From positions 1 to 64,000 of the IMG/VR virus record IMGVR_UViG_3300042293_000555: 64,000 bases of DNA, one strand, 5' to 3'. The stretch is from a virus. The notes under the pieces are model-generated. The model was given only the letters and a program-made list of their open reading frames with translations, had not been told where the DNA came from and made no database searches. Position numbers and translations under genes: made by a program. Positions 6,663 to 54,734 of this stretch are shown one piece after another (within the stretch, counting starts at the first letter, position 1; each line of letters opens with the position of its first letter).

Positions 6663-6675
6663 TTTTTATTGATTT

Positions 6676-7401
6676 TTAATTGTTCAAAAGATTTACTTTT
6701 GCTTGTTTGATTTGAAAATCAGGTATCTGCATTTGTCCTGTCATAATTAAAACAGCTATATCTACAATCTCTCTATGAGTCTGTTCAGGTAATTCACAAT
6801 CCTGACTAAGTGTAAGCACTGTACCATCAGGTAAATTGTAAGTTCCCCCTACATAATCTTGAGCATTTTGAATATAGGCAGGTTTCCTAATGTAATTAAA
6901 TTCACATATAGATTCAACAATAAAGGTTCCATCACTAAATACTCTAAGTCCATCTTCAAAAAATCTTACATTCACTTCTCTCCACTCAAATGAACTTGAA
7001 TCAAAAGGAGATTCTTCATGCATGTCATCATGTTGTTTGATTAAGAGTCTTGCTCTTACACCATCACATTCTCCTTTACTAAGACATGCATAACCTGAAA
7101 CATAAAATAAATAATTTTCAGGTAAATTACACTGATAAGAATTATCAACAACATTATATATTACAGCAGGTAGAGGAGTAAGGTTGTTTATCACTAATGT
7201 TCTAATGTCATCAATACTCCTCTGATTCACTTCAAACCCAAATCCGTTTTTAGTGCGGGGTTCTGCAATTGTCTTAATAAAGATTTCCTGTGCTTCATTC
7301 AAAACCCAATCAATTTCAGGTACTTTTAAATTTCTGTACTGTTGGGAATCTACCTTATTAAGTTTGACTTTTAAATCATAATGCATTGCCCTGATATCCA
7401 T
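6676..7401 (-). CDS. Head-tail ring / tail tubular protein (crAss-type)
   Basis: KLNKVDSQQY..EIDWVLNEAQ, YIRKP and CELPEQTHREIVDIAV, typical of crAss-like ring proteins. Confidence 0.7.
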   Translation of the reverse strand: MDIRAMHYDLKVKLNKVDSQQYRNLKVPEIDWVLNEAQEIFIKTIAEPRTKNGFGFEVNQRSIDDIRTLVINNLTPLPAVIYNVVDNSYQCNLPENYLFYVSGYACLSKGECDGVRARLLIKQHDDMHEESPFDSSSFEWREVNVRFFEDGLRVFSDGTFIVESICEFNYIRKPAYIQNAQDYVGGTYNLPDGTVLTLSQDCELPEQTHREIVDIAVLIMTGQMQIPDFQIKQAKVNLLNN

Positions 7402-32721: not shown

Positions 32722-33693
32722 ATGTACGGCTATCATACAGATATAACTAATACTAACATTGATGAGTTCTTTAATAGAATAAATCAAGAAGAAGTCTTCA
32801 AACACTTGTTTGGAGATTTTGAAATTGGTACTTATATTACATCTCCTTTTAGAGATGATGGTAGTCCTGGATGTTGGATACAATGGAGTGGTAAAAAACT
32901 ATATTTTACTGATTTTGCTTCAAATTGTGGCAGAGTTAATTTAGATGCTTTAGGTATAATTCAAAAGAAATATAATCTATCTGTTCGGAAAGCGATGGAC
33001 TTTATATTATCTTTTGACTTTACTAAAGAACCTGAATATCCTAAGTTTTCTCCCACTTCTATTGTATCTTCATCTAATAATTCTATTTTAGAATTTTGTC
33101 CAAAACCATTTGATGAGTATCATAAACTGTATTGGTCACAGTATGAGATAACTTCTACTCAACTTATCTTAGATAACATATTTGCTACTAAATGGTATAA
33201 GGTAAACAATCACACATTTAACCCTTATCCTGTAGAAACTACTTACACTATTAGTTATTCTACCAGCATAAAAATATGTAGACCAAAGGCTACATCTCAC
33301 AAATGGACAACAAATGCTACCAAAGATGTAATAGGTGGCACAAGATCTCTTCCATTCTTAGGTAAAAATCTTATAATTACCAAGTCGTACAAAGATTGGA
33401 GAGTACTTACAAATTTAGGATTTCATACAATGTATTTTCAAAATGAAGGTATGTTTCCTACAATGGAAAATCTTTACATTTACTTAGAAGCATTTGACAA
33501 TGTATACATCTTATTTGATAATGATGCAGCAGGTGTTAATGCTTCTTCTAAATTAAAAACTTACATAAATGATTCATTTACAGGTAAAGTAGAATCACTA
33601 CTATTACCTACAAAATCTAAAGACCCTGCTGATGCAATAAAAGCAGGTGAAAAACAAAAATTAATTTCATTTCTAAATCCGTTATTACAATGA
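32722..33693 (+). CDS. DNA primase (DnaG/TOPRIM, crAss-type)
   Basis: SPFRDDGSPGC, ITKSYKD, FDNDAAG, KDPAD. Confidence 0.85.
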   Translation: MYGYHTDITNTNIDEFFNRINQEEVFKHLFGDFEIGTYITSPFRDDGSPGCWIQWSGKKLYFTDFASNCGRVNLDALGIIQKKYNLSVRKAMDFILSFDFTKEPEYPKFSPTSIVSSSNNSILEFCPKPFDEYHKLYWSQYEITSTQLILDNIFATKWYKVNNHTFNPYPVETTYTISYSTSIKICRPKATSHKWTTNATKDVIGGTRSLPFLGKNLIITKSYKDWRVLTNLGFHTMYFQNEGMFPTMENLYIYLEAFDNVYILFDNDAAGVNASSKLKTYINDSFTGKVESLLLPTKSKDPADAIKAGEKQKLISFLNPLLQ

Positions 33694-34397
33694 GAAAAGT
33701 TAAAGTTTATTCAACAGTATCAGGTTTAAGACAATTTGATTCATCAGCAACTATTTGGGGAGAACTCAAATACGAGTTACAAAATGAAGGTTATTCATTT
33801 TCTAATATGACAGTTACTGAAAACAAAAGAAACAGTACCTTAATGTTAGATGAAGCAGAATTACCTGAAGAAGATTTTGTACTAATGCTTACACCACAGA
33901 AAACTAAAAGTGGTGCAATGAGTTATGGTGAAATCAGAGCACAGATTAAAGAAGCTTTTATGTCTTATGGAACAGCTGCTGCTACACACTTTAATGAAGG
34001 AAAGAACTATACCAATAAATCTAAAGATGAGTTAGAATTTCTTTTAAATTCTTGGTTAAAGAAAATACCTACAAGTAAACAAGTTGTACTACCTAAAGCA
34101 GAAGTATCTCCTGCACCTATTAAGGTAGATACCAGTTATACAGAAGACTTAGAAGATGATGAAGATGACTACGAAGATAATGAAGAAGATGAAGATTCTG
34201 ATGAAGTAGCAGAAGTTATTGAAGCTATTTCTAACCTTAACTGGAATGGAAGATATGATGACTTTAACCTTGCTATTGCTCTAATTAGAGGTGAGAAATC
34301 TGCTAAGAATCTAACTTCATATAATGTAGCATCTGTAAAAATTACTACATCTGAAGAAGATGCTTGGATTGCTAAGATGAGAAATAAAGGGTTATAA
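33690..34397 (+). CDS. Ubiquitin-like (beta-grasp) domain fused to a helical/acidic C-terminal region
   Basis: Residues 1-75: KVKVYST..TIWGELKYEL..LMLDEAELPEEDFVLMLTPQKTKSG, a beta-grasp pattern ending in Gly75; first gene before E2/JAB/E1. Confidence 0.65.
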   Translation: MRKVKVYSTVSGLRQFDSSATIWGELKYELQNEGYSFSNMTVTENKRNSTLMLDEAELPEEDFVLMLTPQKTKSGAMSYGEIRAQIKEAFMSYGTAAATHFNEGKNYTNKSKDELEFLLNSWLKKIPTSKQVVLPKAEVSPAPIKVDTSYTEDLEDDEDDYEDNEEDEDSDEVAEVIEAISNLNWNGRYDDFNLAIALIRGEKSAKNLTSYNVASVKITTSEEDAWIAKMRNKGL

Positions 34398-34417
34398 ATT
34401 GTTGCTTGCTCATTTTT

Positions 34418-34454
34418 AGAAGACTGTTATGTAATGTAGCAGTCTTCTTTTTTT
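34418..34454 (+). terminator. Intrinsic terminator/attenuator between Ubl and E2 genes
   Basis: AGAAGACTGTTAT/GTAGCAGTCTTCT plus U-tract. Confidence 0.7.
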
Positions 34455-34474
34455 ATTTAACTAATTCTAAAATT

Positions 34475-35734
34475 ATGATAAACGTAGGACATCTAATTCT
34501 TAGAGCATTTAAACAAAGAACTTTAGATAACATTTCAAAATTTTATAAACCTGTAGAAAATATTATAACTGAAAGATTTAGAAAAGTAAATTTAACACCT
34601 ATTTTTCCTTTCTATAATCAAGTAAAACAAGGTTTAGATGCTTGGGGTGGTGAATATGAGTTGACTTTAAATTATGAAATAAAGTCAATAGCTATAAATG
34701 ATGTAAATACTTTTCTTCATTATTGTCACAATAAGAAAAAGCATCATTTCAGTTATCCTTTGTATGACATTGTAAATTCAATTAACCTTAATGGTACTTT
34801 TACTAATAGTTTTATATTCTATAATCCAATACTACAAATTACATTACATTATCCTGAAGTAAAAATTGAAAATGAGAATAAGGAATTTCTAAATTTAAGA
34901 AATTTCTTTGTCAGATTTAATATTAGTCTTGATGGTAATGTTAGTGAGTTAACAGGTAATAAAACTACCTATACAACTGCTGAATATGATAAAAGATATA
35001 TTCATTCTCATTTACATACTCTTAGTACAAATTATAAATTAAAATTTGATAATTTTTGTTTGGGTACAGGACAACCTATATCTTTTGCTAAGATAATGCT
35101 TGAAGAAGTAATTAAATCTAAACAAGGTATTAATGATGCTATAAACTATTATTGTCAAAATATAAATGTAGTAGTTAATACTGAAAGTCTTGCTGGAACA
35201 CCTTATATCAGATTAAGTGGAGTATCAAATAATTATGTAGATTTTAATTCAAGTGATGTAAGTGTTTTATGTAGTTCTGTGTTTGATTATCTTAGTAAAA
35301 TGGATTTAAGTAAAATTAAATCTGATCTTTTTAAAATTGGTGCAGTAAGAGTAGTTAATAAAGATGTCAAACTTACTGATAAAGCAGATGTAGTATTGTT
35401 TATAGATCCTGTTTTATATGATTTTGATAAAGTAAAGTCTATACTTAATATTTCAAAATTTATATCTGTTAAATACAATGGTGTAGATGTTAAACTGTAC
35501 GAAGTTTCATCTGCAACATCTATTGTTGAACCTATTTTTATAAGGTTTAATGGTAAAAAGTTTTATTTTACAATAGATAATCCAGCTATTTATTCACCTG
35601 AAAAGTTACAAATAACTTTTTCACAACCATTTAAAAAATATGTTAGACAATTTATCAAAACTCTCTACTTATCAGCAGCAATTGTTGAACGAGAAACCAT
35701 TAAAGAAAGTACAATTGCCTTTCCTGAACCTTAA
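34475..35734 (+). CDS. Prokaryotic E2 (UBC-like) domain protein
   Basis: Likely start MINVGHL; HYPEV..YIHSHL..DNFCLGTG (HPN-like motif followed by CLG; Cys codon 35057-35059); gene context. Confidence 0.6.
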   Translation: MINVGHLILRAFKQRTLDNISKFYKPVENIITERFRKVNLTPIFPFYNQVKQGLDAWGGEYELTLNYEIKSIAINDVNTFLHYCHNKKKHHFSYPLYDIVNSINLNGTFTNSFIFYNPILQITLHYPEVKIENENKEFLNLRNFFVRFNISLDGNVSELTGNKTTYTTAEYDKRYIHSHLHTLSTNYKLKFDNFCLGTGQPISFAKIMLEEVIKSKQGINDAINYYCQNINVVVNTESLAGTPYIRLSGVSNNYVDFNSSDVSVLCSSVFDYLSKMDLSKIKSDLFKIGAVRVVNKDVKLTDKADVVLFIDPVLYDFDKVKSILNISKFISVKYNGVDVKLYEVSSATSIVEPIFIRFNGKKFYFTIDNPAIYSPEKLQITFSQPFKKYVRQFIKTLYLSAAIVERETIKESTIAFPEP

Positions 35735-36788
35735 TGGACAACCAAAAGTTATTTTATCTAATCTTTTATGGGAAAAAATGCAGTTTTTGTGTAACCATAT
35801 TAGTACTGTAGAGTGGAGTGGATGTATATTTTATGAAATTCATGGTGCATTAGATAAACCTGAAGAGTTACAAATCTTTGTACATGATATGATTCCTTTA
35901 GATAAAGGTACAACAGGATTTACAGAGTATAATTTTGATGGAAGAGTTATTGCATATATGACTGAAATGGAATATTTTGAATACAGGATAGGACATTTAC
36001 ATTCTCATCACAGTATGAAAACATTTTTCTCAGGCACTGATTTGGAAGAAGTAAATGAAAACTCTGAACACATTAAACCTTATCTCAGTATTATCATCAA
36101 TAATGCTTATGATTTTTCTTGTAAGTTAGCATTCAGGTTAAAAGTACTTAATCCTACTATCTATGAATATCAGGAGATTGATAATGTACCTAAACAACTT
36201 GTGATACAACAATCTGATGAGTATGTTGCTAATTATGATTGTTTAGTAATCACACCAAAGAAAGAATTTAGTGTAAATCCTTCTTTCTTAGCTCAGTTTA
36301 ATGAGATAATGAAACCAAAACCATCTAAATTTCCTACTTATATAGCTAATACTAAACCTATTGGGTTTAAAAGTGATCAACTTGAATTTGAATTTGATGA
36401 TTTCTTTGGTTCACTTGATTCTCCAACATCAGATAGGAAAGGTATTGATGAAGTGTCTGATAGTGGAATTACATTAGCAGAGTTTGAGAAATTCTATTGT
36501 TATTTACTTAGGTTAGGGTTAGATGTACCAGGAGATACTATGGAAAAAGTATTGGAAGATTTAGATGAATCAGCAAGAGCTGAAGATTTTAATTTAGAAC
36601 AGTTTGCATATAATCTAAAGAAAGATTTTCCTAAGAATTTTAAGAAGTTTTGGAATGTAAAAATATTAACTAAAAGAGAAGAAGCAAGTGAGTGGGAAGA
36701 ATTTACTGATGAACTTATGTTTGCATCAGATGAATTTCCAATCTTAGATTCTCTTTTGGAACTCTTAATGTCACCAAATCATGAGTAG
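35640..36788 (+). CDS. JAB/JAMM (MPN+) metallo-isopeptidase
   Basis: VEWSG Glu plus GHLHSHHSMKTFFSGTD = HxH-x7-S-x2-D JAMM motif. Confidence 0.85.
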   Translation: MLDNLSKLSTYQQQLLNEKPLKKVQLPFLNLNGQPKVILSNLLWEKMQFLCNHISTVEWSGCIFYEIHGALDKPEELQIFVHDMIPLDKGTTGFTEYNFDGRVIAYMTEMEYFEYRIGHLHSHHSMKTFFSGTDLEEVNENSEHIKPYLSIIINNAYDFSCKLAFRLKVLNPTIYEYQEIDNVPKQLVIQQSDEYVANYDCLVITPKKEFSVNPSFLAQFNEIMKPKPSKFPTYIANTKPIGFKSDQLEFEFDDFFGSLDSPTSDRKGIDEVSDSGITLAEFEKFYCYLLRLGLDVPGDTMEKVLEDLDESARAEDFNLEQFAYNLKKDFPKNFKKFWNVKILTKREEASEWEEFTDELMFASDEFPILDSLLELLMSPNHE

Positions 36789-37515
36789 AGAAAGATATCA
36801 AGATGCATTATGGTATAATAAACCTGTAAGAATATTAATTTTTGGAGCAGGTGGAATTGGCTCTTGGAGTTCATTCTTTCTAACAAGAGCAGGTTTTGAT
36901 GTTAGAATTTTTGACTTTGATAGAGTTGAAGAACATAATCTTGGTGGACAAATGTTTCTACATCAAGATATTGGAAAGTTAAAAATTGATGCTGTAAATA
37001 ATGTTGCCAGGTTATTTAACAATGATGATTATATGTTTAGGGGAATGAACTTTAAAGTAGGTTCTAATTTCTCTTTTAATGATAGAGGTGGATTCTATGA
37101 ATACAATCCAAGAATAGCCACTATTGTCATCAGTGCTTTTGATAATATGGAAGCAAGAAAAAATCTATTTACAGCATTTACAGCAGCAAATAATACTACA
37201 CCAATGTGGTTTATTGATGGTAGATTATTGATGGAGCAAATGAGAATTTACTGTATCAACAAATCTCATCAAAAATCTATCATAGATTACATTGATGCTC
37301 ACTTGTTTGATGATTCTGAAGTTGAAGAATTACCTTGTACAATGAAACAGGTTGGACATGGTGCAGCTATGATTGCTACTCACATTACAGGATTTGTTAC
37401 TAACATTGTTTCCAATGAATTTGTATGGAGAGAAGAAGTGTTTCAAGTACCTTATATGTGGGATTACATTATTCCAACTAATTCTGTCACTCAAAAATTA
37501 GCAAGTGAATTATGA
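36781..37515 (+). CDS. E1-like ThiF/MoeB adenylating enzyme
   Basis: GAGGIGS, DFDRVEEHNLGGQ, KIDA, SAFDNMEAR, IDGR; candidate catalytic Cys in ELPCTMK. Confidence 0.88.
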   Translation: MSRERYQDALWYNKPVRILIFGAGGIGSWSSFFLTRAGFDVRIFDFDRVEEHNLGGQMFLHQDIGKLKIDAVNNVARLFNNDDYMFRGMNFKVGSNFSFNDRGGFYEYNPRIATIVISAFDNMEARKNLFTAFTAANNTTPMWFIDGRLLMEQMRIYCINKSHQKSIIDYIDAHLFDDSEVEELPCTMKQVGHGAAMIATHITGFVTNIVSNEFVWREEVFQVPYMWDYIIPTNSVTQKLASEL

Positions 37516-37994
37516 TAGCAGATTTGCATCCTATCTTTAAAACAGATACTAATTATCCAAGATTAAAAGGTAGAAATTCACATTCTACAACAATGTATTC
37601 TCTTCATTTTGCAAAGTTTAATTTTCATAGTAAGACATCACTGGTATTTGTAAATAAACCTATAGCAAATTTGACTAACTTAAATGAACACTTTACAAAC
37701 AATAATTACTTTTATTATTTTAGTAAAAGTAACATAATAGTTTCTAAAGGATTAATCTTGGATAGTAATACATTAGAAGTACTTGTATTTGTACACATTA
37801 AACAAAGATATAGATGTTTTGGAGAAAACTGGTCAGCAATAACATATTACAGAAATTCAAGTCTTGTAATATATGTTGCAACAGAGTTAAATGTTAAAGT
37901 TGTTGAAAAATTACTACCTTTAAGTCAATTTATAAAAATAATTTTCTTACCAAAAGAAGACTTACAAAGGTTAGTATATGAAGAACACGAATAG
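37512..37994 (+). CDS. Hypothetical protein coupled to the E1 gene
   Basis: ATGA overlap with the E1 stop. Confidence 0.55.
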   Translation: MIADLHPIFKTDTNYPRLKGRNSHSTTMYSLHFAKFNFHSKTSLVFVNKPIANLTNLNEHFTNNNYFYYFSKSNIIVSKGLILDSNTLEVLVFVHIKQRYRCFGENWSAITYYRNSSLVIYVATELNVKVVEKLLPLSQFIKIIFLPKEDLQRLVYEEHE

Positions 37995-38063: not shown

Positions 38064-38651
38064 ATGGCAAAAACTCCTAAAAACATTAAAGTTAAAACAT
38101 TTATTTATGTTTTGGCTGACCCTGACACTCTTGAAATAAAATATGTTGGTAAAACTGTTAAACCATTAAAAATTAGATTAACAGGTCATATTTATTCTTG
38201 TAAAAAAGAAAAAAATCATAGGACAAATTGGATAAAATCTATTCTTAAAAAAGGTAAAAAACCTATAATAAAAATGATAGATTATTGTACATGGGATGAA
38301 AGTCAAAAATTAGAATATGATTGGATTATTAAATTCAAGGACAAAGGATATGACCTTGTTAATTTAACAAATGGTGGTGAAGGCAATTTAGGATTAAAAC
38401 TTAGTAAAGAACGAAGAGATAATCTTATAATAGCTGTTTCTAAAAAAATTTATCAATATACTTTAAATGGAGTATTTATAAAAGAATTTAAAAATGCAGT
38501 AGATGCTGCTAAAGAATTAAATTTAAAACACTCTTCTAAAATTAATGCTGCTGCAAGAGGGGTTAGAGGTAAAGCTGCAAACTTTTTATGGTCTTATGAA
38601 AAACTTAATTTTTTAAAAAAATATAAAAATAGATATGATAAAAACAGGTAA
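38064..38651 (+). mobile_element. Free-standing GIY-YIG homing endonuclease with NUMOD1-like DNA-binding domain
   Basis: FIYVL..KYVGKT..RLTGH..E..NLTNGGEG; IYQYTLNGVFIKEFKNAVDAA..FLWSY. Confidence 0.85.
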
Positions 38652-39018
38652 TACAAACAGAACTAAAGGAAACAATGCTGAACGTCATTATGCCTCTAAA
38701 TTAAAAGAAGTATTTCCTGATTGTCTTACAAGTAGATATGCATCTAAAGCATTAGATGATGCAGGGGTTGATTTAGCAAATATTCCAATACTTGTACAGA
38801 TTAAAGCAGGAATACAAAAAGGAATGAAACCTGATGAAATCTTAAAGAATATTGAAAACAAGATTCCTAAGATGATGAGTGATTTTCCTAAAGTACTTAT
38901 ACATCATAAGCAGGGTAAACCAGGCAAGAAAAGAGATGAGTATTCTTCATTGGTAACTATGACTTTTGATGATTTTTTCACAATTATTAAATTAGCTTAT
39001 GATAATCAGAACAAGTAA
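38635..39018 (+). CDS. PD-(D/E)XK Holliday junction resolvase-like nuclease
   Basis: KGNNAER..GVDL..VQIK. Confidence 0.75.
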   Translation: MIKTGNTNRTKGNNAERHYASKLKEVFPDCLTSRYASKALDDAGVDLANIPILVQIKAGIQKGMKPDEILKNIENKIPKMMSDFPKVLIHHKQGKPGKKRDEYSSLVTMTFDDFFTIIKLAYDNQNK

Positions 39019-47060: not shown

Positions 47061-50000
47061 TTACTTAGTCAAGTCATCATCTTGTGATTGTTCTTTTTCC
47101 AATGCTTCCATCTTTTTCTTCTTTTCTAAAAGAATTTTTTGAGATTGTTCTTTAAAACTTGATCTTCTTTCCATCCTTTCTTTAGGTGTTACTTTTTCAG
47201 GTTTTACAGATTTCTTAGCATTTTTACTGGTAGTATCTTTAATATCTTTAGGTAGTGGATGTCTACGATTAACTAAAGCATCAATTTGTTTCTTTGAAAG
47301 TTCTTTACCTTCAGGAAGATTTTCAAGTTCTTTTCTATAATCTTCTCTTTGTGCACTAACTACTTTTCTTTCAATTCTTTCTTCATCCCAAGCTACCTGA
47401 TCAAAAATTGGTTCAGTAAATACTCTTTCTGATTCTTTACCAAATCCCATATATGAATCTCTAAACAAACTTGGAAGTATAATTTTACGAAATTTTTCTC
47501 CTTGATCTGAATTTGATACCTGACCATCAAACCATTTTCCTGCAGATTTTAAAAATTTATTTACATCAGTAATATAAGTCATTACTCCATTATTAGAAAC
47601 CATGTTTTTATATAAATCTATAGGATTAGTATACATTGTTGCTGATTGAGATAATTGTAATCCCCTATTTACTAATAAATTATGCCATTTTCTTTTATTA
47701 GAATCTTCTTCATCGTCATCATCCCACAGTGTTGCATGAGCAAGAATTGTAAATGATATCCAAGCTAAGGTCATAGACAAATCTGCCATAAGAGATTTCA
47801 TATTTCTTAAATCTCTTTCAGTAAACTTACCATCACTAAGTAATTTTTCATATCCTGAATTTTCATTTATAAGTTCTCTACCTGAAAGTAGGTTAATAGG
47901 TGTAGCTATAAATTTTCTCATTAGTAACTTAAGAGTAAGTATTGATGATTGTGCTATATTAAGATTTGATCTTACACCAAATATTGATGCTAAACCTAAC
48001 CCTGCTACTGCTCCTATACCTATACCCCATCCACCACCAATCATCATTACCCCTGTAAGTGCTCCATGTATTGCACCTGATGCTTTAGTGTGTGACCACA
48101 ATCTACCTTTTTTACCTTTCTGTCCTGTTACAAGGTCATCATGTTCAAAAGCAATTCTACCATAAATTTGCATAGAAAGCCAAGTTTTAAACATAATTAA
48201 TGCTTTACCTACAACATTGGATTTTAACATCATACCACGTAATTGATCATAGTTACCATGTGCAGTTACAATAGCATCAGTTACCTTAGTTCTAAATAAA
48301 GTATAAGTTTCACCTTTATTCTGTTCCCAAGCAAGTATATTTTCTTCAGTTCTAAAATCAGGTTTTAATTTACCATCAACATTTAATGCATCCCATACAT
48401 TACTTTCTTTACCACTAATACCTTTAATAGGTGTATCTAACATAATTGCAACCATCAAGGGAGTCTGATTCATATACTCAGTCCTTTTAGTTAATTGCAT
48501 TGGTGTAATTGCATTGACTTTTGAAAAAGGTGTTTTTGTACTTGCTTTCTGTAACTCATTAGTAGCATCCTGAAGAATATCAAATTTGTTAATTAACAAA
48601 CTTGCTTTCTTTGCACCATTAGGTGTTACCCTTGATTTATTACCAAGTATACCTTTTATAAAACTACCTGATACAATATGTGCTGCTCTATAAAAATGTT
48701 TAGATTGAAAATGATCACCTGTTGATGCAATTATTAAGTTAGCAATTTGTCCTTCTATAAAGTTAGTAATTGCTGATTTAATACTAAAACCTAAGTTGAT
48801 AAATGTAATATGACTTAATAAGTTAGTAAAAACTGCTTCGAAAGATGCTCTTTTACCTAATGATTCTCTTATATCTTCTAACTCTTTTTTCAATACCGGA
48901 TTTGATTCTTCATTAATCATTTTATCAAGCTCTTTCTTGAGTTTCTGATCTTTAAAAGTAAGTAATCTTCCTGAAACTATACCCATAAGTTTACCAGTAA
49001 GTCCTTTTCTCTCATTTAAAGGTAGAGTACTTGCAGTAAGATGTATATCACCTTGATTACCTAACACTACTCTATTATACCAATCTTCAAATTGAGAAAT
49101 TGCCTTATTTCTAAGACCTTTTATTTCTGTTTTACCATTTATTTTAAGAGTTTCTGACATAGAAGTTTTTACACTTTTACCTGTTTTACCATAATGATTT
49201 TTTAAAATATTAATGTAAGGCAACATTTCTTGTCTTGCATTATATTCATGAGCCATCTTAGAATAGTATTTGATAATTTTAGGTAAATTAACTGAATGTT
49301 CTTCTACAATGTTTGCCATTATAGCTTTTTCAATAATTTGTCCTACAGGAATACTTTCACCATATTTCTTTTTTAATTCTACACCATCACTAAGCTCTAA
49401 TAAATCAGTAAGGTATTTAACAGCTTTAGATGACAGTTCTGAATAAGCAATAGATGATTTATGATTAACTGGTTTACCATGCAATTTAGCAAACTTAATC
49501 ATTTCAACTCTTGATCTTTTATCAACTTCTTGTTTGTTGTCACTGATAAATGCAGAATTTACTTTTGGTTCACGTTGATTGGTAATTATATCAACATTGT
49601 CATAAGTGTTTGATTCTTGTGCATTTATACCAAATCCCATTTTTAATTCCTGATAATATGCTGCTGCCATTTTTATCAACTTCTTAAAGAAACTGATATT
49701 AGGGTCAGCATAAATTTCAGTAATTGCTTTTTTTACCATAGGTAATGAGTTGGAGAACAACCTTGATCTAATTTCTTCAGGAAATTGTTTCATGATGTTG
49801 TCCATCTCTTCAGAAATCAAATCATAGTATTCCTTTAACTCAGAATGAGCTTCAATTACTTTAAATGATTCATCATAATACCCAGTAGGGGTAGTAGTTT
49901 CTTCCATTACATAAGTATCAGAATCTGCACTAAGTTTTCTATTGGTTACAGCTTTAAATTTTCTTGGTATAGAGTAGTTATATTTATAAGTAGGGTTAAC

Positions 50001-51614
50001 TACTAAACCTTTATAGGTTATAAAACTTGTACTGTTAATATTAGCAGAAGAAATAAATGGATTGTGAGCCATTATATCCATTTGTAATTGATCAAAATCT
50101 TTCATTTCCAATTCACTCTCAAGACCTACACCCCTTTGTTCTAAAAATGTTTCAGTATAAAGTTGTTTCCATTTTAAGAAATTTCTAATACTCTTCTTTT
50201 GCCCTTCCAATTCTTCTTTATAACCTATAGCACTGATGTTAGATTTTACATTATCAGTATAACCATCATCATCTTTAAAAAACTCAGCAAATTCAGGAAA
50301 CTCATCCTGTATTTCCTGCATTCTTCCTAAGTCAAAAGTTATTGTATTTTCTCTAAACCAAGTTTTCTTTTTATCAAAAGCTCTTAGTAACCTTTTACTT
50401 CTTGCACCTATCTCTTCAGTGTTAAATGCTATATTGACTTCCTGATTATATTGAGCCATAAATGAATCTTTAAAGTCAGAAAAATCACTTGTATATCTTT
50501 GAGTCAACTTACCACTTCTCTTACCTGTTTTAGATCTTTGAAAAAATAAATCAAAAGATACCTGTTTACCTAAAAATAAACCTGAGAGAGTTTGCTTTAA
50601 TTGTTTCAATACTTTCTCTGCTTTAACTAATGCTGCATTGTGTCTTTCTTCAAATGACTTATATTCACCAATGTGTTCTGCCCAGTTAGCTTGAAAAGCA
50701 TCCATAATTACCTGTGGCAGAGTACCATTATTACTAAATATACCTTTAGATATATCCATTAACAACATATCTATCATATTTGCATCAGGTAATGCTTTTA
50801 CAATTTCATCATAAGTCATAGTATCATACATCTTCTTAACTCTTGGATTAGAGTTTACAACAGTTGTTACTATTTCCTTATATGTTCCATTTAACTGAAC
50901 CTCATGTTTTTTAAAATCAGCTGCAATTTGATTAAGTATTTGTTGTACTTCATCAGGTAATACTGTAGCTCTTTTAGTAACAGGGTCATATATCTCATGA
51001 TCAAAAAATAAAGGATGAGAATCAATGTTAATACCATCAATAGTTTGATTTGTTTGGGTAATCTCCATTGCCTTATAGAAGTTAATAATTCTTTTAGCTT
51101 CTTCAGCATTCTCAAATATCTCTTTATTTGCTACAGGGTCATCACCCAACTTACCTGAGTTTAACAGCTCATACACTCTTTGAAAATCTTCAAGTGCCTG
51201 ATACCTTAATTCAGCTAAAGTAAGTGGATTCTCTTTACTTAACTTACTTATTTCAGCTTCTAATTCAACAATCCTATTTTGCAGTTTTACCTGTAACTTA
51301 CCATATCTCTTAGCAGTATTAGGATCACTATCTTTAATTTGTTCAATAGTTGTATTAAGATTTGAAATTCTATTTTTATACAGAGTTACTAAAGACTTTT
51401 TAAAATCTTTAGTTTTTTCAAAGTTTGTTTTGAAATCCATATCTTCATCTGCATCTTCTTCAAAACTAAAATCATCATCTTCTACACTAAAAGGACTAAA
51501 AGATTCTCTTGCCATAAGAATCTTAATTTTATTCTGAACACCTTTATCTTTCAGTAATAGTTTAAACTGTTTTTCAGTATAAACTTTTCCCATAAATTCA
51601 TAAGTACAGCCCAT
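47061..51614 (-). CDS. Large virion cargo/ejection protein with TM segments
   Basis: ~1517 aa, mostly helical; hydrophobic GVMMIGGGWGIGIGAVAGLGLASIFG and MTLAWISFTILA; in the RNAP cargo cluster. Confidence 0.65.
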   Translation of the reverse strand: MGCTYEFMGKVYTEKQFKLLLKDKGVQNKIKILMARESFSPFSVEDDDFSFEEDADEDMDFKTNFEKTKDFKKSLVTLYKNRISNLNTTIEQIKDSDPNTAKRYGKLQVKLQNRIVELEAEISKLSKENPLTLAELRYQALEDFQRVYELLNSGKLGDDPVANKEIFENAEEAKRIINFYKAMEITQTNQTIDGINIDSHPLFFDHEIYDPVTKRATVLPDEVQQILNQIAADFKKHEVQLNGTYKEIVTTVVNSNPRVKKMYDTMTYDEIVKALPDANMIDMLLMDISKGIFSNNGTLPQVIMDAFQANWAEHIGEYKSFEERHNAALVKAEKVLKQLKQTLSGLFLGKQVSFDLFFQRSKTGKRSGKLTQRYTSDFSDFKDSFMAQYNQEVNIAFNTEEIGARSKRLLRAFDKKKTWFRENTITFDLGRMQEIQDEFPEFAEFFKDDDGYTDNVKSNISAIGYKEELEGQKKSIRNFLKWKQLYTETFLEQRGVGLESELEMKDFDQLQMDIMAHNPFISSANINSTSFITYKGLVVNPTYKYNYSIPRKFKAVTNRKLSADSDTYVMEETTTPTGYYDESFKVIEAHSELKEYYDLISEEMDNIMKQFPEEIRSRLFSNSLPMVKKAITEIYADPNISFFKKLIKMAAAYYQELKMGFGINAQESNTYDNVDIITNQREPKVNSAFISDNKQEVDKRSRVEMIKFAKLHGKPVNHKSSIAYSELSSKAVKYLTDLLELSDGVELKKKYGESIPVGQIIEKAIMANIVEEHSVNLPKIIKYYSKMAHEYNARQEMLPYINILKNHYGKTGKSVKTSMSETLKINGKTEIKGLRNKAISQFEDWYNRVVLGNQGDIHLTASTLPLNERKGLTGKLMGIVSGRLLTFKDQKLKKELDKMINEESNPVLKKELEDIRESLGKRASFEAVFTNLLSHITFINLGFSIKSAITNFIEGQIANLIIASTGDHFQSKHFYRAAHIVSGSFIKGILGNKSRVTPNGAKKASLLINKFDILQDATNELQKASTKTPFSKVNAITPMQLTKRTEYMNQTPLMVAIMLDTPIKGISGKESNVWDALNVDGKLKPDFRTEENILAWEQNKGETYTLFRTKVTDAIVTAHGNYDQLRGMMLKSNVVGKALIMFKTWLSMQIYGRIAFEHDDLVTGQKGKKGRLWSHTKASGAIHGALTGVMMIGGGWGIGIGAVAGLGLASIFGVRSNLNIAQSSILTLKLLMRKFIATPINLLSGRELINENSGYEKLLSDGKFTERDLRNMKSLMADLSMTLAWISFTILAHATLWDDDDEEDSNKRKWHNLLVNRGLQLSQSATMYTNPIDLYKNMVSNNGVMTYITDVNKFLKSAGKWFDGQVSNSDQGEKFRKIILPSLFRDSYMGFGKESERVFTEPIFDQVAWDEERIERKVVSAQREDYRKELENLPEGKELSKKQIDALVNRRHPLPKDIKDTTSKNAKKSVKPEKVTPKERMERRSSFKEQSQKILLEKKKKMEALEKEQSQDDDLTK

Positions 51615-51615
51615 G

Positions 51616-54600
51616 TTAATCACATTTAGTTTTTATAATTCCTTTTTGAATAAGTTCCTGTATTTGTTCTTCTATTTCCTGTTCTTCAGTAAGTTGAGTT
51701 TCTTCACTAACCATTGCTTTAACTATCTCTACATTATCAGGAGTATTAGACATCAGCAATTTAAATAAATTTTCATTCACATCCTTATTATCACTGTAAT
51801 TATTAATTAAATCCAATAACTTTTTAATCTCTGTAAGTCCTTTTTCATCTGCTTCATATTCAGTATCATTCTGTATTGTTTCTATAGCATCTATTAAGGC
51901 TTCCTGTTCCTGATCACTTAAATCTTCTTTACTACTAAGTTTATCTATTGTTAATCTTGCATTTGAAATATTCTTTAAAATCCCATCAACTTTATTCATC
52001 AACTTATCTAAAGAATTTGCTGCATCACCTGTAAAAAAGTAATATGTAAGTGACTTATATAAATTATCAAATTCTTCAGGACTTACTTTAGTTGGTAATG
52101 GAGTAACAAACTTTTTAAATCCTTCTACATCTTGATTAGAACCTAATATATGTATTTGTTCAGGTTCAAATACTATTATAAATTTTTCATCAGTATATAT
52201 GTCACCTAATGGATTTTGTATTAACAATCCATCTACATCAATGTCATCATTAGCTAAATTATTAAAAATATTTATACTTTGATAGTTTACTGGTTTAGGT
52301 TCAAAATCATTTATTAGTTCAATGGCTTCATTTATTTCACTTTTAGGTGCATTGTTATTTCTTAATTCATTTATATTATTTTGTAATTTTGATAACTGAT
52401 TTTTATTATAATAAAAATTTTCTTTATCAGTTGATGTTTTAAAAAGTTTAGAACTTTCTCCATACTTTACATCTTTAATATTTACAATAGCAGTAGTTCT
52501 ACTTTCTTCAGATTTATTTGTTACATTATTAGGGTAAAATACATATTTGCCATTTATATCTGTTGTAAAATAAATACCTTTTCCACGATTAGTTTTTCTA
52601 AATTCAGATAAAGGTTTTCCTCCAAAATGATAAACAATATCTTTTACTTTACTATTAGGAAATATAGTATCTAAATATTGAGAATATTGTTCAGCAGTAC
52701 CAATAGAAGATAATTCAGAATTAGTATCAAATAATTCTTGTACTCCTGGTTTAACTTCATTTCCAAACTTACTATACTTAACTGATGCACCTTTATATGG
52801 TTTAACAGTAGTAGGTTGATAAACTACTTTGCTACCTTCTACAATGGGTGCTCCTGTTAAATCAGATAATTCTTTTAGTTTTTCAAAATCTTCGTTAGAA
52901 AGAGTCAGATTATTATTACCTTCATTATAATAATCATAATTATCAAGTAACTCAATTTTATCAATGTTGTGTTGAGTAGCATTAATAAATAATTCATCAT
53001 AAGAATATCTTAACTCATCATCTAAGGTTAATCTAATAGCATACTGACCTTGATTTGTATATCTTTTCTTTTTACCTTTATAATCAATTAATGCACTACC
53101 TATATCTTGTAAGTAACTTTCCATTATAGGTGAATCTCCTTTAAAAGAAAGCTTGATAGCACCATGTGGAACACTTTTTGATTTACTTGAATAAGTAGCT
53201 AATTCCATTGGAATATTCTTACTCATTAAATCAATAAATAATTGTATTGCATCTGAAAGAGTTTTTGCTCCTGCATTATTCATATATGCACCAATATGAT
53301 GATGCACCCCACCAAAATCAGATACTTTCCATTGATTTTTTAATTGTTGAAATACTTTGGTTTCATTAGTTTTAAATTTAGTTATTACTGATAAATAGTT
53401 TTGAGCTGAATTATTAATGAATAAATCTGCATCAATATTTTTTATTAATTCATCAAAAACTAAAACTTTTTCTTGAATAAGTTTATCATCACTTGAATCA
53501 TCTCTTCTTGTACGAGTTTTAACTAATGTATTTTTTTCTTCTTCATTAAAAAAAATATTAATAATGGTATTTATTGATGCAATATCTTTTTCTTGAAACA
53601 ATTGAGGATATAATTGCCTAAACTCACTATGTTTTTTATCTGTAAATACATTATGTAATAATAGTAATTTTTCTAAAAAATTAGCTCTTCCCTTATTTGT
53701 TAATTTGTGTAATGAAGGCATTGTTTTAAAAACATGAAGTACATTTTCTACTCTACCTAAAAATGTAATATGTTCATAATGCATATTGATGTATTCTTCA
53801 GATTGAGGTCTATTTTCATATTTTAAAGGAGAATATTCCAATAAATTTATCCTATGACCATATTGCATCATTTGTGCAAAATGTTTTAATCTAAAATCCT
53901 TATCTAAAGCAGCAATGTTTATATCAGTATAATTAATAGATTTTTCTTCAAGTTTAAAATCATGAATTTTATTATACTCTTTACTGATTAAAGAAGCTAA
54001 AAACTTTCTGATGTTATTTATAAACTCTAAAGCCTTTTGAAATAATGTCTTGTTTTCAGTTATTGTTTTTAAATCAATTTTACCTGTAACAAGTCTTGCA
54101 ATAGTTTCTACTATTGCTTCTTCTATTTGTCCTTTTTCATCTAACTCAGGATATAACTCTTTAACTTCTGCAAGTACTTGTTTACCATAAGTAGAAGTCT
54201 GAATTTCATTTGATAAACTTTTATACAGCTTAGAGTTATCTTCTTTAACCTGTTCAATAAATGGGTGTGCAAATTCATGCCAAGCAGTTTCAGGAGTAAC
54301 CTTAGCTAAGTTAATATAAACTCTACCATCTTCAAACTTACCTGAATATGGTAAAGAATTATCATTTACAGTTTCATAAGGAATACTAAACTTATCACTT
54401 AATGTTTTTAAAATATCTTCTACATTATTAGGGTCAATACTACCTTTATCAAACTTAGAATATTTAACACCATTGATGTTATCTATCTGTTTGAATACTA
54501 ATTTATTAGGTACTATTTTATTACCATCTTCAAAGAATAATTTCTCATTCCATTGAGGGTCATTGGCAAAGTACTTTGACTTTGCCTGACCTTTCAATTC

Positions 54601-54720
54601 TGTATGTAGTTTTCTAAATTGTTTTAAATCTTTTACATTTAGAAACTCATCAATAACTCCTTTAGTTCTAAGGAATGATTTAGCATTTGCTTCTGATGTT
54701 TTAAATGGTTTACAACTCAT
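51616..54720 (-). CDS. Polyvalent cargo protein: zincin metallopeptidase plus ART-like domain
   Basis: WHEFAHPF..EEAIV zincin; IVYHFGG..GKGIYFT..KFIIVFEPEQIHILGS ADP-ribosyltransferase-like pattern. Confidence 0.6.
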   Translation of the reverse strand: MSCKPFKTSEANAKSFLRTKGVIDEFLNVKDLKQFRKLHTELKGQAKSKYFANDPQWNEKLFFEDGNKIVPNKLVFKQIDNINGVKYSKFDKGSIDPNNVEDILKTLSDKFSIPYETVNDNSLPYSGKFEDGRVYINLAKVTPETAWHEFAHPFIEQVKEDNSKLYKSLSNEIQTSTYGKQVLAEVKELYPELDEKGQIEEAIVETIARLVTGKIDLKTITENKTLFQKALEFINNIRKFLASLISKEYNKIHDFKLEEKSINYTDINIAALDKDFRLKHFAQMMQYGHRINLLEYSPLKYENRPQSEEYINMHYEHITFLGRVENVLHVFKTMPSLHKLTNKGRANFLEKLLLLHNVFTDKKHSEFRQLYPQLFQEKDIASINTIINIFFNEEEKNTLVKTRTRRDDSSDDKLIQEKVLVFDELIKNIDADLFINNSAQNYLSVITKFKTNETKVFQQLKNQWKVSDFGGVHHHIGAYMNNAGAKTLSDAIQLFIDLMSKNIPMELATYSSKSKSVPHGAIKLSFKGDSPIMESYLQDIGSALIDYKGKKKRYTNQGQYAIRLTLDDELRYSYDELFINATQHNIDKIELLDNYDYYNEGNNNLTLSNEDFEKLKELSDLTGAPIVEGSKVVYQPTTVKPYKGASVKYSKFGNEVKPGVQELFDTNSELSSIGTAEQYSQYLDTIFPNSKVKDIVYHFGGKPLSEFRKTNRGKGIYFTTDINGKYVFYPNNVTNKSEESRTTAIVNIKDVKYGESSKLFKTSTDKENFYYNKNQLSKLQNNINELRNNNAPKSEINEAIELINDFEPKPVNYQSINIFNNLANDDIDVDGLLIQNPLGDIYTDEKFIIVFEPEQIHILGSNQDVEGFKKFVTPLPTKVSPEEFDNLYKSLTYYFFTGDAANSLDKLMNKVDGILKNISNARLTIDKLSSKEDLSDQEQEALIDAIETIQNDTEYEADEKGLTEIKKLLDLINNYSDNKDVNENLFKLLMSNTPDNVEIVKAMVSEETQLTEEQEIEEQIQELIQKGIIKTKCD

Positions 54721-54734
54721 AGTTTATTATTATT

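What the first reader, a model, noticed from the sequence alone, without database searches (positions are those of the whole stretch)
33690..37515. Phage-encoded ubiquitin-like conjugation operon: Ubl, E2, JAB, E1
Seen: four consecutive co-oriented genes coupled to the primase. (i) A 75-aa beta-grasp-like domain ending KTKSG. (ii) A protein with YIHSHL..FCLG, resembling the E2 HPN..CL active site. (iii) An intact JAMM motif (E..HSH-x7-S-x2-D). (iv) A ThiF/E1 with nucleotide-binding motifs and a lone PC cysteine but no CxxC Zn pairs. No thiamine, molybdopterin or sulfur-relay genes are nearby. Knowledge: bacterial E1-E2-JAB-Ubl operons exist (PRTRC, Bil/Bub, CBASS Cap2/Cap3), and some conjugate proteins in anti-phage defence. 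Inference: the virus carries its own writer and eraser set inside the replication module, to tag host or phage proteins or to jam host Ubl/CBASS immunity. I know of no functional description of this in crAss-like phages but cannot check the literature. The Ubl and E2 assignments are less certain than JAB and E1.
Basis: partly seen in the sequence, partly recalled or inferred. Interest (0 to 1): 0.92.

Follow-up and report, generated by a model that had tools for sequence, protein, structure and literature searches.

The report
Ubiquitin-like tagging genes in freshwater phage
A complete 85-kb freshwater crAss-like phage carries, next to its DNA primase gene, its own ubiquitin-like protein (made as a precursor), a trimming protease, an activating enzyme and a probable transfer enzyme; kits of this kind have so far been studied only in cells and in bacterial anti-phage defence, and tagging by the phage kit has not been shown.

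Summary
All four co-oriented genes and every named residue are at the stated coordinates.

- **ORF 33690-34397:** its first 75 residues model as a ubiquitin/SUMO-like beta-grasp. They end in K-S-G, invariant in all relatives aligned, including the Fpv3, DAC15 and crAss001-like phages.
- **ORF 36781-37515:** a minimal ThiF/E1 adenylation domain with an invariant Cys186 and no CxxC pairs.
- **ORF 35640-36788:** carries a complete, invariant JAMM motif.

The order primase-Ubl-E2-like-JAB-E1 is conserved across deeply diverged phages. So is a terminator-like hairpin after the Ubl gene. JAB and E1 co-occur in 74 and 75 phage records. The cassette is missing from the five other Crassvirales genomes tested. 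The phage genome has no sulfur-relay genes.

Best reading (about 0.55): a phage-borne Ubl conjugation cascade with the gene order of bacterial Bil operons, but built from different protein families. It is not PRTRC. The E2 role, the targets and the biological purpose are inferred.

I found no paper describing it. This scan has noted the same cassette before on many other phage genomes.

The parts
32722..33693 (+). DnaG/Toprim-type primase. Its stop overlaps the start of the Ubl gene by 4 nt (ATGA). This is context, not part of the cascade.
   Evidence: phrog_12622 DNA primase 1.2e-44 and Pfam Toprim_2. Overlap. The primase precedes the Ubl gene in every related locus that reaches that far upstream.
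33690..33914 (+). Ubiquitin-like beta-grasp domain, residues 1-75 of the 235-aa precursor. It ends K71-T-K-S-G75, with the Gly75 codon at 33912-33914.
   Evidence: In the AF2 model, blocks 1-70 have pLDDT 84-92 and a beta-beta-alpha-beta-beta order. Foldseek against the PDB returns SUMO1, ubiquitin, ISG15 and B. fragilis ubiquitin at probability 1.0, with target TM 0.55-0.70 over about 75 residues. L67, P69, T72, K73, S74 and G75 are invariant in 27 homologues. K-S-G is also invariant in Fpv3, DAC15 and PhiCrAssBcn13.
33915..34397 (+). C-terminal part of the precursor (residues 76-235). It holds helices with a near-invariant H-F-N-x-G-K-N-Y-T-N-K motif (residues 100-110), a disordered acidic tract and a helical tail. 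Presumably released when the Ubl is cut off; function unknown.
   Evidence: Alignment A1 shows N106 and T108 invariant, and F101, N102, Y107, N109 and K110 at 90% or more. The model has pLDDT 85-87 for residues 81-120 and below 50 for 127-166. No Pfam family; phrog_15560, of unknown function.
34418..34458 (+). Intrinsic-terminator-like hairpin (14-bp stem at 34418-34448) followed by a T-run, between the Ubl gene and the E2-like gene.
   Evidence: Consensus scan and sequence. A strong hairpin plus T-run sits in the same intergenic position in all ten related loci folded (L001-L005, L007-L009, L012, L016), with unrelated stem sequences.
34475..35734 (+). E2-like protein, 419 aa. Residues about 34-251 model as a UBC/UEV/RWD-like fold. 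They carry invariant N133, Y175, H177, S178, H179, C195 (codon 35057-35059), G197, E237, S238, G241 and P243. Residues about 259-419 form a fast-evolving C-terminal domain that may recognise targets.
35640..36788 (+). JAB/MPN+ (JAMM) metallopeptidase in residues about 36-170, followed by a C-terminal helical region. JAMM residues are E58, H121, H123, S131 and D134.
   Evidence: The motif is invariant in 12 phage homologues. It aligns with the CSN5 JAMM motif. All 8 members tested hit Pfam Prok-JAB below threshold, best 0.0045. PADLOC JAB scores 0.025. Some GenBank homologues are annotated as 'metalloprotease domain containing protein'.
36781..37515 (+). Minimal E1-like (ThiF/MoeB superfamily) adenylation enzyme, 244 aa. 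It has the nucleotide loop G22-x-G-G-x-G27, D45, K68, D121, R126 and invariant C186 (codon 37336-37338). There are no Zn-binding CxxC pairs, no second adenylation domain, no separate Cys domain and no rhodanese domain.
   Evidence: Pfam ThiF 3.9e-15, 56.1 bits against a cut-off of 28.1. Best solved relatives are UBA5 at 5.8e-11, then PaaA and MccB. Invariant columns in 42 sequences. Cysteine count.
37512..37994 (+). 160-aa ORF whose start overlaps the E1 stop (ATGA). Function unknown and only found in close relatives. It may be an accessory gene; membership of the cassette is not established.
   Evidence: Overlap. No Pfam, NCBIfam or PHROG family. About 30% identity matches only in L005, L006, L009 and L010.

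Best explanation
The four genes form a phage-encoded ubiquitin-like (Ubl) protein-conjugation cascade. It is expressed with the replication genes.

1. **Precursor.** The 235-aa product of 33690-34397 is a precursor.
2. **Processing.** The JAMM peptidase (35640-36788) cuts after the invariant Gly75. This frees a 75-residue ubiquitin-fold protein ending K-S-G, plus a 160-residue C-terminal fragment of unknown role.
3. **Activation.** The minimal ThiF-type E1 (36781-37515), probably a homodimer like ThiF, MoeB and UBA5, uses ATP to adenylate Gly75. It may hold the Ubl as a thioester on the invariant Cys186.
4. **Transfer.** The Ubl passes to Cys195 of the 419-aa E2-like protein (34475-35734). Its variable C-terminal domain would select the target, since no E3 is present, and the Ubl is joined to target lysines.
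5. **Reversal.** The JAB peptidase could also reverse the tag.
6. **Dosage.** A conserved terminator after the Ubl gene would make the tag more abundant than its enzymes.

**Shown here:** the folds and families of the Ubl, JAB and E1; the conserved catalytic residues; the conserved gene order; co-occurrence; and the absence of sulfur-relay genes.

**Inferred:** the cleavage site, the thioester relay, a catalytic role for the E2-like protein, protein targets, and the biological purpose. The patchy distribution favours host takeover or counter-defence over a core replication role.
For: **Ubl.** The model is a beta-grasp and its top structural matches are SUMO, ubiquitin and ISG15. K-S-G is invariant, and the sequence after it is variable or extended.

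**JAB.** The full JAMM motif is invariant and aligns with CSN5.

**E1.** Pfam ThiF scores above its cut-off and UBA5 is the best solved relative. ATP and Mg residues and Cys186 are invariant in 42 sequences.

**E2-like.**
- The model is confident.
- UBC, UEV and RWD chains fill most of the top 50 of an all-against-PDB structural search, covering 80-90% of those domains.
- In the second look they stand clear of the next hits, at 5.2, 4.9 and 4.0 against 2.9.
- The invariant H-S-H and Cys195 lie in the loop between the beta-meander and the next helix. Classical E2s place HPN and the catalytic Cys there.

**Context.**
- The order primase-Ubl-E2-like-JAB-E1 is seen in 13 IMG/VR loci where the contig reaches that far (some contigs are truncated), plus Fpv3, DAC15, PhiCrAssBcn13 and MAG contigs.
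- E1 is in 75 phage records and JAB in 74, with a near-identical taxon breakdown.
- The order Ubl-E2-DUB-E1 equals that of BilABCD operons, which do conjugate proteins (PMC10557695).
- A JAB peptidase cutting a Ubl fusion after a conserved Gly is shown for BubCD on BubAB (PMC11601596).
- The whole genome has no rhodanese, cysteine desulfurase, ThiG or ThiS match.
Against: - Foldseek finds nothing in the PDB.
- No HMM or profile links the protein to UQ_con, prokaryotic E2 families or a Cap2-type E2 alignment.
- H177, H179, C195 and E237 could instead be a metal site.
- The E1 lacks the separate Cys domain and the second adenylation domain of Bil E1s. A conserved crossover-loop Cys is also typical of the sulfur-carrier enzymes ThiF and MoeB.
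- The Ubl ends in a single Gly (S-G), not G-G.
- The terminator between the Ubl gene and the three enzyme genes could mean separate transcription units.
- No conjugate, cleavage or thioester has been observed for any member of this family.
Confidence: 0.55

Rival explanations
1. Ubl activation without a catalytic E2. JAB and E1 process and adenylate the Ubl as above. The 419-aa protein is a non-catalytic UEV/RWD-like adaptor or a metal-binding scaffold. Ligation would be done directly by the E1, as in urmylation or MccB/PaaA-type C-terminal chemistry. Alternatively the activated Ubl is used non-covalently.
For: Many of the best structural matches are non-catalytic UEV and RWD domains, such as Tsg101, BRISC subunits, Spc24/25 and FANCL. 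There is no sequence-profile link to active E2 families. PaaA and MccB are among the solved relatives of the E1. The invariant H, H, C and E could bind a metal.
Against: The Cys, and an H-x-H at the position of HPN, are at least 90% conserved across 150 highly diverged sequences with 13% mean column identity. That is not expected of a passive adaptor. The gene sits in the E2 position of the Bil gene order.
Confidence: 0.2
2. Sulfur-carrier pathway. The beta-grasp protein is a ThiS/MoaD/CysO-like carrier. JAB trims it (as Mec+ does), the ThiF-like enzyme adenylates it, and it is converted to a thiocarboxylate. That sulfur would supply a phage-specific thio-modification of a nucleotide, tRNA or cofactor. 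The 419-aa protein would use Cys195 in sulfur transfer.
For: GenBank homologues are annotated 'thiamine biosynthesis protein ThiF'. The best NCBIfam hit is a ThiF model. Operons of Ubl, JAB and E1 for sulfur incorporation are known (Iyer et al. 2006, PMC1779556). A conserved crossover-loop Cys is used by ThiF and MoeB (my knowledge).
Against: That ThiF model scores 58 bits against a cut-off of 159. The complete genome has no rhodanese, cysteine desulfurase, ThiG or ThiS-family match. The Ubl's top 50 structural matches are ubiquitin, SUMO and ISG15 types, with no ThiS or MoaD chain named among them. It ends S-G rather than G-G. An E2-fold protein is always present.
Confidence: 0.12
3. The genes are neighbours without a shared pathway. 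They would be independent accessory replication-module proteins that happen to resemble Ubl-system parts.
For: A terminator-like hairpin separates the Ubl gene from the other three. The Ubl and E2-like genes are too diverged for tblastn to trace in most records.
Against: The same four families keep the same order in phages whose capsid proteins share only about 25% identity. JAB and E1 co-occur in 74 and 75 records. E1 is missing from all five other Crassvirales genomes tested. Only the E1 family was searched there; absence of the other three genes was not checked. Start and stop codons overlap.
Confidence: 0.03

Closest known systems
BilABCD (Bil, types I and II): bacterial anti-phage ubiquitination operons (PMC10557695; summarised in PMC11601596)
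   Same: Same four roles in the same gene order, Ubl-E2-JAB peptidase-E1. No E3 is present. The Ubl has a conserved Gly followed by extra residues that the JAB must remove. The E2 is proposed to pick the target itself.
   Different: - Here the genes sit in a lytic phage's replication module, not in a bacterial defence island.
- The E1 is a single 244-aa adenylation domain, not the IAD-AAD-CYS architecture with Zn sites.
- The E2-like protein has its conserved His residues before the Cys, whereas Bil has a His after it. It is also 419 aa long with an extra C-terminal domain.
- The extension after the Gly is a conserved 160-residue domain, against up to nine residues in type II Bil.
- No HMM-level similarity was found.
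Type I Bub (BubAB/BubCD/BubE, formerly 6E.1; PMC11601596)
   Different: - In Bub the Ubl is fused to the E2, and the JAB to the E1.
- Bub works through serine oxyesters and has a DUF6527 serine protease.
- Here the four proteins are separate, the fusion partner is a different domain, and both E1 and E2-like keep an invariant Cys.
PRTRC (ParB-related, ThiF-related cassette; NCBIfam TIGR03734-03742) of plasmids and ICEs
   Same: A mobile-element cassette with a small beta-grasp protein (PRTRC_C) and a ThiF-type enzyme. PRTRC_ThiF is the second-best NCBIfam hit of the phage E1, at 1.4e-11.
   Different: - All scores are far below the curated cut-offs: ThiF 44.2 against 144.75, and A 12.8 against 101.8. 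There is no hit to B or C.
- A real PRTRC cassette from a Flavobacteriales genome (L021) shows no similarity to the phage Ubl, E2-like or JAB proteins.
Type II CBASS Cap2 (E2-E1 fusion) and Cap3 (JAB)
   Same: An E1 adenylation domain, an E2 fold and a JAB peptidase act together on a protein C-terminus. The phage E1 weakly matches PADLOC E1-E2 models, best 2.5e-8.
   Different: CBASS has no Ubl, since the cyclase itself is conjugated, and its E2 and E1 are fused. A profile of the phage E2-like family does not match an alignment of Cap2-type E2 domains.
Lambda/T1 tail-assembly proteins TAPI (Ubl plus C-terminal domain) and TAPK (JAB plus NlpC/P60) (Iyer et al. 2006, PMC1779556)
   Same: A phage-encoded beta-grasp domain with a conserved C-terminal Gly, fused to a further domain and paired with a JAB peptidase predicted to release it.
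   Different: That system has no E1 or E2 and sits in the tail module. It is about processing only, not activation or conjugation.
ThiS-ThiF, MoaD-MoeB and CysO-Mec+ sulfur-carrier systems
   Same: A beta-grasp protein with a C-terminal Gly, a ThiF-superfamily adenylating enzyme with a crossover-loop Cys, and in some systems a JAB trimming peptidase.
   Different: The genome has no sulfur donor or acceptor enzymes. The terminus is S-G, not G-G. The fold is closer to ubiquitin and SUMO. An E2-fold partner is present.

Membership tests
E1-like / ThiF-MoeB superfamily (Pfam PF00899) | Score above the curated Pfam cut-off, with the nucleotide-binding GxGxxG loop and the Mg/ATP-binding Asp and Arg | tested here: met
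   56.1 bits against a cut-off of 28.1. G22, G24, G25, G27, D45, K68, D121 and R126 are invariant in 42 sequences. UBA5 matches at 5.8e-11.
E1-like / ThiF-MoeB superfamily (Pfam PF00899) | ATP-dependent adenylation of the Ubl C-terminal Gly and thioester formation on the conserved Cys | not testable with these tools
   Cys186 is invariant. No biochemical data exist.
JAB/MPN+ (JAMM) metallopeptidases | The E ... H-x-H-x7-S-x2-D metal-binding and catalytic motif | tested here: met
   E58, H121, H123, S131 and D134 are present and invariant in homologues. The stretch from H121 to D134 aligns with CSN5's JAMM motif.
JAB/MPN+ (JAMM) metallopeptidases | Score above the curated cut-off of a JAB family model | tested here: not met
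   Prok-JAB scores 17.2 bits against a cut-off of 25. All 8 members tested match it below threshold. PADLOC JAB scores 0.025. The domain is a divergent member recognised by motif.
Ubiquitin-like beta-grasp modifiers | Beta-grasp fold of about 75 residues | tested here: met
   AF2 model with pLDDT 84-92. Foldseek probability 1.0 to SUMO1, ubiquitin and ISG15, with target TM up to 0.70.
Ubiquitin-like beta-grasp modifiers | Conserved C-terminal Gly that is exposed for activation | tested here: inconclusive
   Gly75 is invariant and marks the end of the fold. It is internal to the 235-aa product, and cleavage is only inferred.
UBC/E2 ubiquitin-conjugating enzymes | UBC fold: an N-terminal helix, a four-stranded meander and C-terminal helices | tested here: inconclusive
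UBC/E2 ubiquitin-conjugating enzymes | A catalytic Cys in the loop after the meander, preceded by an HPN-type motif | tested here: inconclusive
   C195, preceded by H177-S-H179, lies between the last strand and helix 201-215 and is at least 90% conserved. The equivalence to HPN and the catalytic Cys is judged by position only, not by a residue-level structural alignment.
UBC/E2 ubiquitin-conjugating enzymes | A sequence-profile match to UQ_con or a prokaryotic E2 family | tested here: not met
   No Pfam, NCBIfam or PADLOC hit for the window protein or for 55 family members. A profile against PDB sequences finds nothing at E<=10. hhalign against a Prok-E2_B (Cap2-type) alignment gives probability 0.2%.
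BilABCD | Gene order Ubl-E2-JAB-E1 with no E3 | tested here: met
   Order. The Bil order is as stated in PMC10557695.
BilABCD | A multidomain E1 (inactive plus active adenylation domains and a mobile Cys domain) | tested here: not met
   The E1 is 244 aa, with one adenylation domain covering residues 16-201.
BilABCD | Residence in bacterial genomes as an anti-phage defence | tested here: not met
   The cassette lies in a complete 85,045-bp virus genome with terminal repeats, between the primase and recombination genes.
PRTRC | Scores above the NCBIfam cut-offs for PRTRC_ThiF, A, B and C | tested here: not met
   44.2 against 144.75 for ThiF; 12.8 against 101.8 for A; no hit for B or C. Direct comparisons with the PRTRC proteins of L021 are negative.
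ThiS/MoaD sulfur-carrier systems | A ThiS/MoaD-family carrier with associated sulfurtransferase or thiazole/molybdopterin synthase genes | tested here: not met
   No PF02597, PF00581, PF00266 or PF05690 match in the whole genome, while the control genomes matched.

The most novel reading that the evidence does not exclude
A widespread group of lytic Bacteroidota phages encodes a complete, self-contained ubiquitin-like conjugation system. The group includes this freshwater phage, the FpV4 group and the cultured gut crAss-like phages crAss001 and DAC15. The phages would use the system during infection to tag host proteins (defence, replication or transcription factors) or their own proteins. This would be a virus-side counterpart of the bacterial Bil, Bub and CBASS conjugation defences. 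It would be built from a new E2 family and the smallest known conjugating E1, and would release a second functional protein from the Ubl precursor.
Probability: 0.4. Interest if true: 0.9.

Novelty: new variant of a known kind. Interest (0 to 1): 0.78.

Why it matters
- **A reversed role.** Ubl conjugation in prokaryotes is currently known as a cellular and anti-phage activity (Bil, Bub, type II CBASS). A complete writer-and-eraser set carried by lytic phages would reverse that picture. Phages would be using protein tagging for takeover or counter-defence.
- **Directly testable.** The same cassette is present in cultured phage-host pairs. These are crAss001-like phages on Bacteroides intestinalis, DAC15 on B. 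thetaiotaomicron and FpV4 on Flavobacterium psychrophilum.
- **Biochemical interest.** The parts are a 244-aa E1 without Zn sites or a Cys domain, an unclassified E2-like family with more than 1000 diverged clusters, and a Ubl precursor with a conserved second domain.
- **Annotation.** The public label 'thiamine biosynthesis protein' on these phage genes is probably misleading. Only the E1 and, in some records, the protease carry any name.

Tried and rejected
- Complex prediction (E1 dimer + Ubl 1-75 + E2-like 36-256) was not available; nothing was folded.
The contexts of distant E2-like family members could not be read.

**E2-like protein: searches that found nothing**
- Foldseek against the PDB: no match at E<=0.001.
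- Profile of 150 sequences against PDB sequences: 0 hits at E<=10.
- Pfam on 55 members: no relevant family.
- ESM Atlas: poor model and no usable hit.
- BFVD: only uncharacterised phage proteins.
- hhalign against a 5-sequence Cap2-type E2 alignment: probability 0.2%.

**PRTRC link rejected**
- A real PRTRC cassette was fetched (L021).
- Its 456-aa protein did not match the E2-like profile, PRTRC_C did not match the Ubl profile, and PRTRC_B did not match JAB.

**Locus searches that failed or added nothing**
- The same tool with P0098 and P0100 found no relatives.
- With the JAB alignment it returned the same close set.
- Megablast of the cassette against the phage collection: no match.

**Expression**
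- No RNA holder is listed among the public runs.

**Literature**
- crAss-like+ThiF, crAss+PRTRC and F. psychrophilum+phage+ThiF each returned 0 papers.
- crAss-like+ubiquitin and the broader term sets returned nothing on a phage cassette.
- The Yutin 2018 paper could not be fetched under the id I tried.

Full report
**What is there.** The window holds four co-oriented ORFs directly after a DnaG/Toprim-type primase:

| ORF | Length |
|---|---|
| 33690-34397 | 235 aa |
| 34475-35734 | 419 aa |
| 35640-36788 | 382 aa |
| 36781-37515 | 244 aa |

The primase stop overlaps the first start (ATGA). JAB and E1 overlap by 8 nt, and E1 overlaps the next ORF by 4 nt.

**The phage.**
- The window is part of a complete 85,045-bp virus record with direct terminal repeats.
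- It has a crAss-type capsid, portal, terminase and DNA polymerase, and 1520-aa and 3038-aa ORFs.
- Its capsid protein is 62% identical to that of Flavobacterium phage FpV4 (Fipvunavirus) and 23-32% identical to Crassvirales capsids.
- Near-identical DNA occurs in lake and freshwater metagenomes from several years.

**E1.**
- Pfam ThiF scores 56.1 bits against a cut-off of 28.1.
- The best solved relatives are UBA5 (5.8e-11), PaaA and MccB.
- In 42 diverged homologues, the GxGGxG loop, D45, K68, D121, N122, R126, D146, R148 and Cys186 are invariant.
- The usual Arg of the N-L-x-R-Q motif is Gly here. An invariant Arg5 near the N-terminus may supply the arginine finger, as in MoeB (my knowledge; inference).
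- The protein has two cysteines and no CxxC. At 244 aa it has no room for a second adenylation domain, a Cys domain or a rhodanese domain.

**JAB.**
- E58, H121-x-H123, S131 and D134 form a complete JAMM motif. It is invariant in 12 phage homologues and aligns with CSN5's motif from H121 to D134.
- Model scores are below threshold: Prok-JAB 17.2 against 25, though all 8 members tested hit it. It is a divergent JAB recognised mainly by motif.
- In Fpv1-type phages the gene is split at the H-x-H codons by a roughly 1-kb insert. The insert carries an endonuclease gene and matches the group I intron model (43.4 bits, E 1.9e-9, just under the gathering score). Homing elements typically sit in the most conserved part of a gene (my knowledge).

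**Ubl.**
- The AF2 model of the 235-aa protein has a confident N-terminal beta-beta-alpha-beta-beta domain, with pLDDT 84-92.
- Foldseek matches it to SUMO1, ubiquitin, ISG15 and the B. fragilis ubiquitin at probability 1.0.
- The domain ends at Gly75. L67, P69, T72, K73, S74 and G75 are invariant in 27 homologues.
- K-S-G is also invariant in Fpv3, DAC15 and a crAss001-like phage.
- A second conserved helical domain follows (H-F-N-x-G-K-N-Y-T-N-K), then a disordered acidic tract and a helical tail.

**E2-like protein.**
- *Family.* It belongs to a large family (1125 cluster representatives at E<=0.001) with no Pfam, NCBIfam, PHROG-function or PADLOC assignment.
- *Conserved residues.* N133, Y175, H177, S178, H179, C195, G197, E237, S238, G241 and P243 are conserved in at least 90% of 150 sequences, although mean column identity is only 13%.
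- *Model.* It is confident, with mean pLDDT 81 and 87-98 over residues 121-250. It reads as a helix, a long antiparallel meander, a loop carrying H-S-H and Cys195, then two helices. That is the order of elements in a UBC domain.
- *Negative searches.* Foldseek finds nothing in the PDB. A profile search of PDB sequences finds nothing.
- *Second look.* Tsg101 UEV, UBC9 and 7zw0_sj score 5.2, 4.9 and 4.0, and the next chain scores 2.9.
- *Profile test.* The family profile does not match an alignment of Cap2-type E2 domains.

**Conservation of the unit.**
- The order primase-Ubl-E2-like-JAB-E1 is found in 13 IMG/VR loci where the contig reaches that far, in Fpv3, DAC15 and PhiCrAssBcn13, and in Chitinophagales and Flavobacteriales MAG contigs.
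- In the phage collection, E1 matches 75 records and JAB 74, with a near-identical taxon breakdown.
- E1 is absent from the five other Crassvirales genomes tested: p-crAssphage-type Carjivirus, cr8_1, cr4_1, IAS virus and cr116_1. The cassette is therefore an accessory module, not a core replication function.
- A terminator-like hairpin with a T-run follows the Ubl gene (34418-34458). An equivalent hairpin with an unrelated sequence sits at the same place in all ten relatives folded. This suggests the tag is made in excess of its enzymes, or that the enzymes form a separate transcription unit.

**Sulfur route.** The complete genome has no rhodanese, cysteine desulfurase, ThiG or ThiS-family match, while the control genomes matched. 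The ThiF equivalog model scores 58 bits against a cut-off of 159. The public annotation 'thiamine biosynthesis protein' is probably a naming artefact.

**Mechanism proposed.**
1. JAB cuts the precursor after Gly75.
2. E1 adenylates Gly75 and may take it onto Cys186.
3. The Ubl moves to Cys195 of the E2-like protein.
4. That protein's variable C-terminal domain selects targets.
5. JAB may also remove the tag.

Precedents exist for the cut and for the order. BubCD's JAB domain cuts BubAB right after a conserved Gly (PMC11601596). Bil operons have the order Ubl-E2-DUB-E1 and conjugate proteins without an E3 (PMC10557695). Everything from cleavage onward is inference.

**Comparison with known systems.**
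- It works most like Bil but fails Bil's defining E1 architecture, and it sits in a phage.
- It shares the cleavable Ubl fusion with Bub but not Bub's fusions or serine chemistry.
- It is not PRTRC. NCBIfam scores are far below cut-off. A real PRTRC cassette shows no similarity to three of the four proteins.
- Iyer et al. 2006 described Ubl/E2/JAB/E1 operons in bacteria, and a JAB plus Ubl pair in phage tail modules, but no phage cascade.

**Novelty.**
- Nine full-text searches found no paper on this cassette in phages (one search covers PRTRC generally). Subscription papers and supplements were not searched.
- An Asgard-virus preprint reports E1-like genes only.
- This scan has already noted the same cassette on many other phage genomes: 112 notes in at least 88 genomes. 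Two further notes cover this genome. Those are AI notes, not independent evidence.
- I class it as a new variant of a known kind.

Noticed in passing
L032 (Flavobacterium phage Fpv1, NC_031914.1) 1740-2770; equivalent to window ~35994-36008: In Fpv1-type phages the JAB gene is split exactly at the JAMM H-x-H codons by a roughly 1,056-nt insert. The insert carries an endonuclease gene on the opposite strand. Its 5' part matches Rfam Intron_gpI (43.4 bits, E 1.9e-9, gathering score 50). Fpv3 and FpV4 have the uninterrupted gene. PHROGs holds the two halves as separate families (phrog_21448 and phrog_16107).
   Followed up: partly
window 34418-34458, and the same intergenic spot in L001-L005, L007-L009, L012, L016: A strong hairpin plus T-run after the Ubl gene is conserved in position in all relatives folded, but not in sequence. 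It could set the ratio of tag to enzymes, or mark the end of the primase-Ubl transcript.
   Followed up: partly
window 33915-34397: The part of the Ubl precursor after Gly75 has its own near-invariant motif (H-F-N-x-G-K-N-Y-T-N-K, residues 100-110), an acidic disordered tract and a conserved helical tail. No family or fold was assigned. It may be a second functional product released by cleavage.
   Followed up: no
window 38064-38651: A GIY-YIG plus NUMOD1 homing-endonuclease-type ORF sits between the 160-aa ORF and a small conserved ORF (38635-39018) that precedes a PD-(D/E)XK nuclease. It is present in only one related locus (L015), so it is probably a recent insertion.
   Followed up: no
L002 (DAC15) 5698-6708 and L003 (PhiCrAssBcn13) 5599-6702: The E1 homologues of the gut Steigviridae phages are 336-367 aa. 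They carry an acidic N-terminal extension of about 120 residues that the window and the Fpv phages lack.
   Followed up: no
L021 (Flavobacteriales genome G085, contig 66) 8023-13262, minus strand: A PRTRC cassette reads, in order of transcription: RadD-like helicase, topoisomerase-C-terminal-like protein, PRTRC_C (73 aa), a 456-aa protein without any NCBIfam family, PRTRC_B (237 aa) and PRTRC_ThiF. The small-protein, large-unknown, mid-size-protein, ThiF layout resembles the phage cassette in outline. No sequence similarity was detectable.
   Followed up: partly
window 47061-63851, minus strand: Three very large ORFs of 1520, 1034 and 3038 aa. The first had no PHROG match and the other two were not searched. 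They fit the giant virion proteins of crAss-like phages by size and position only.
   Followed up: no
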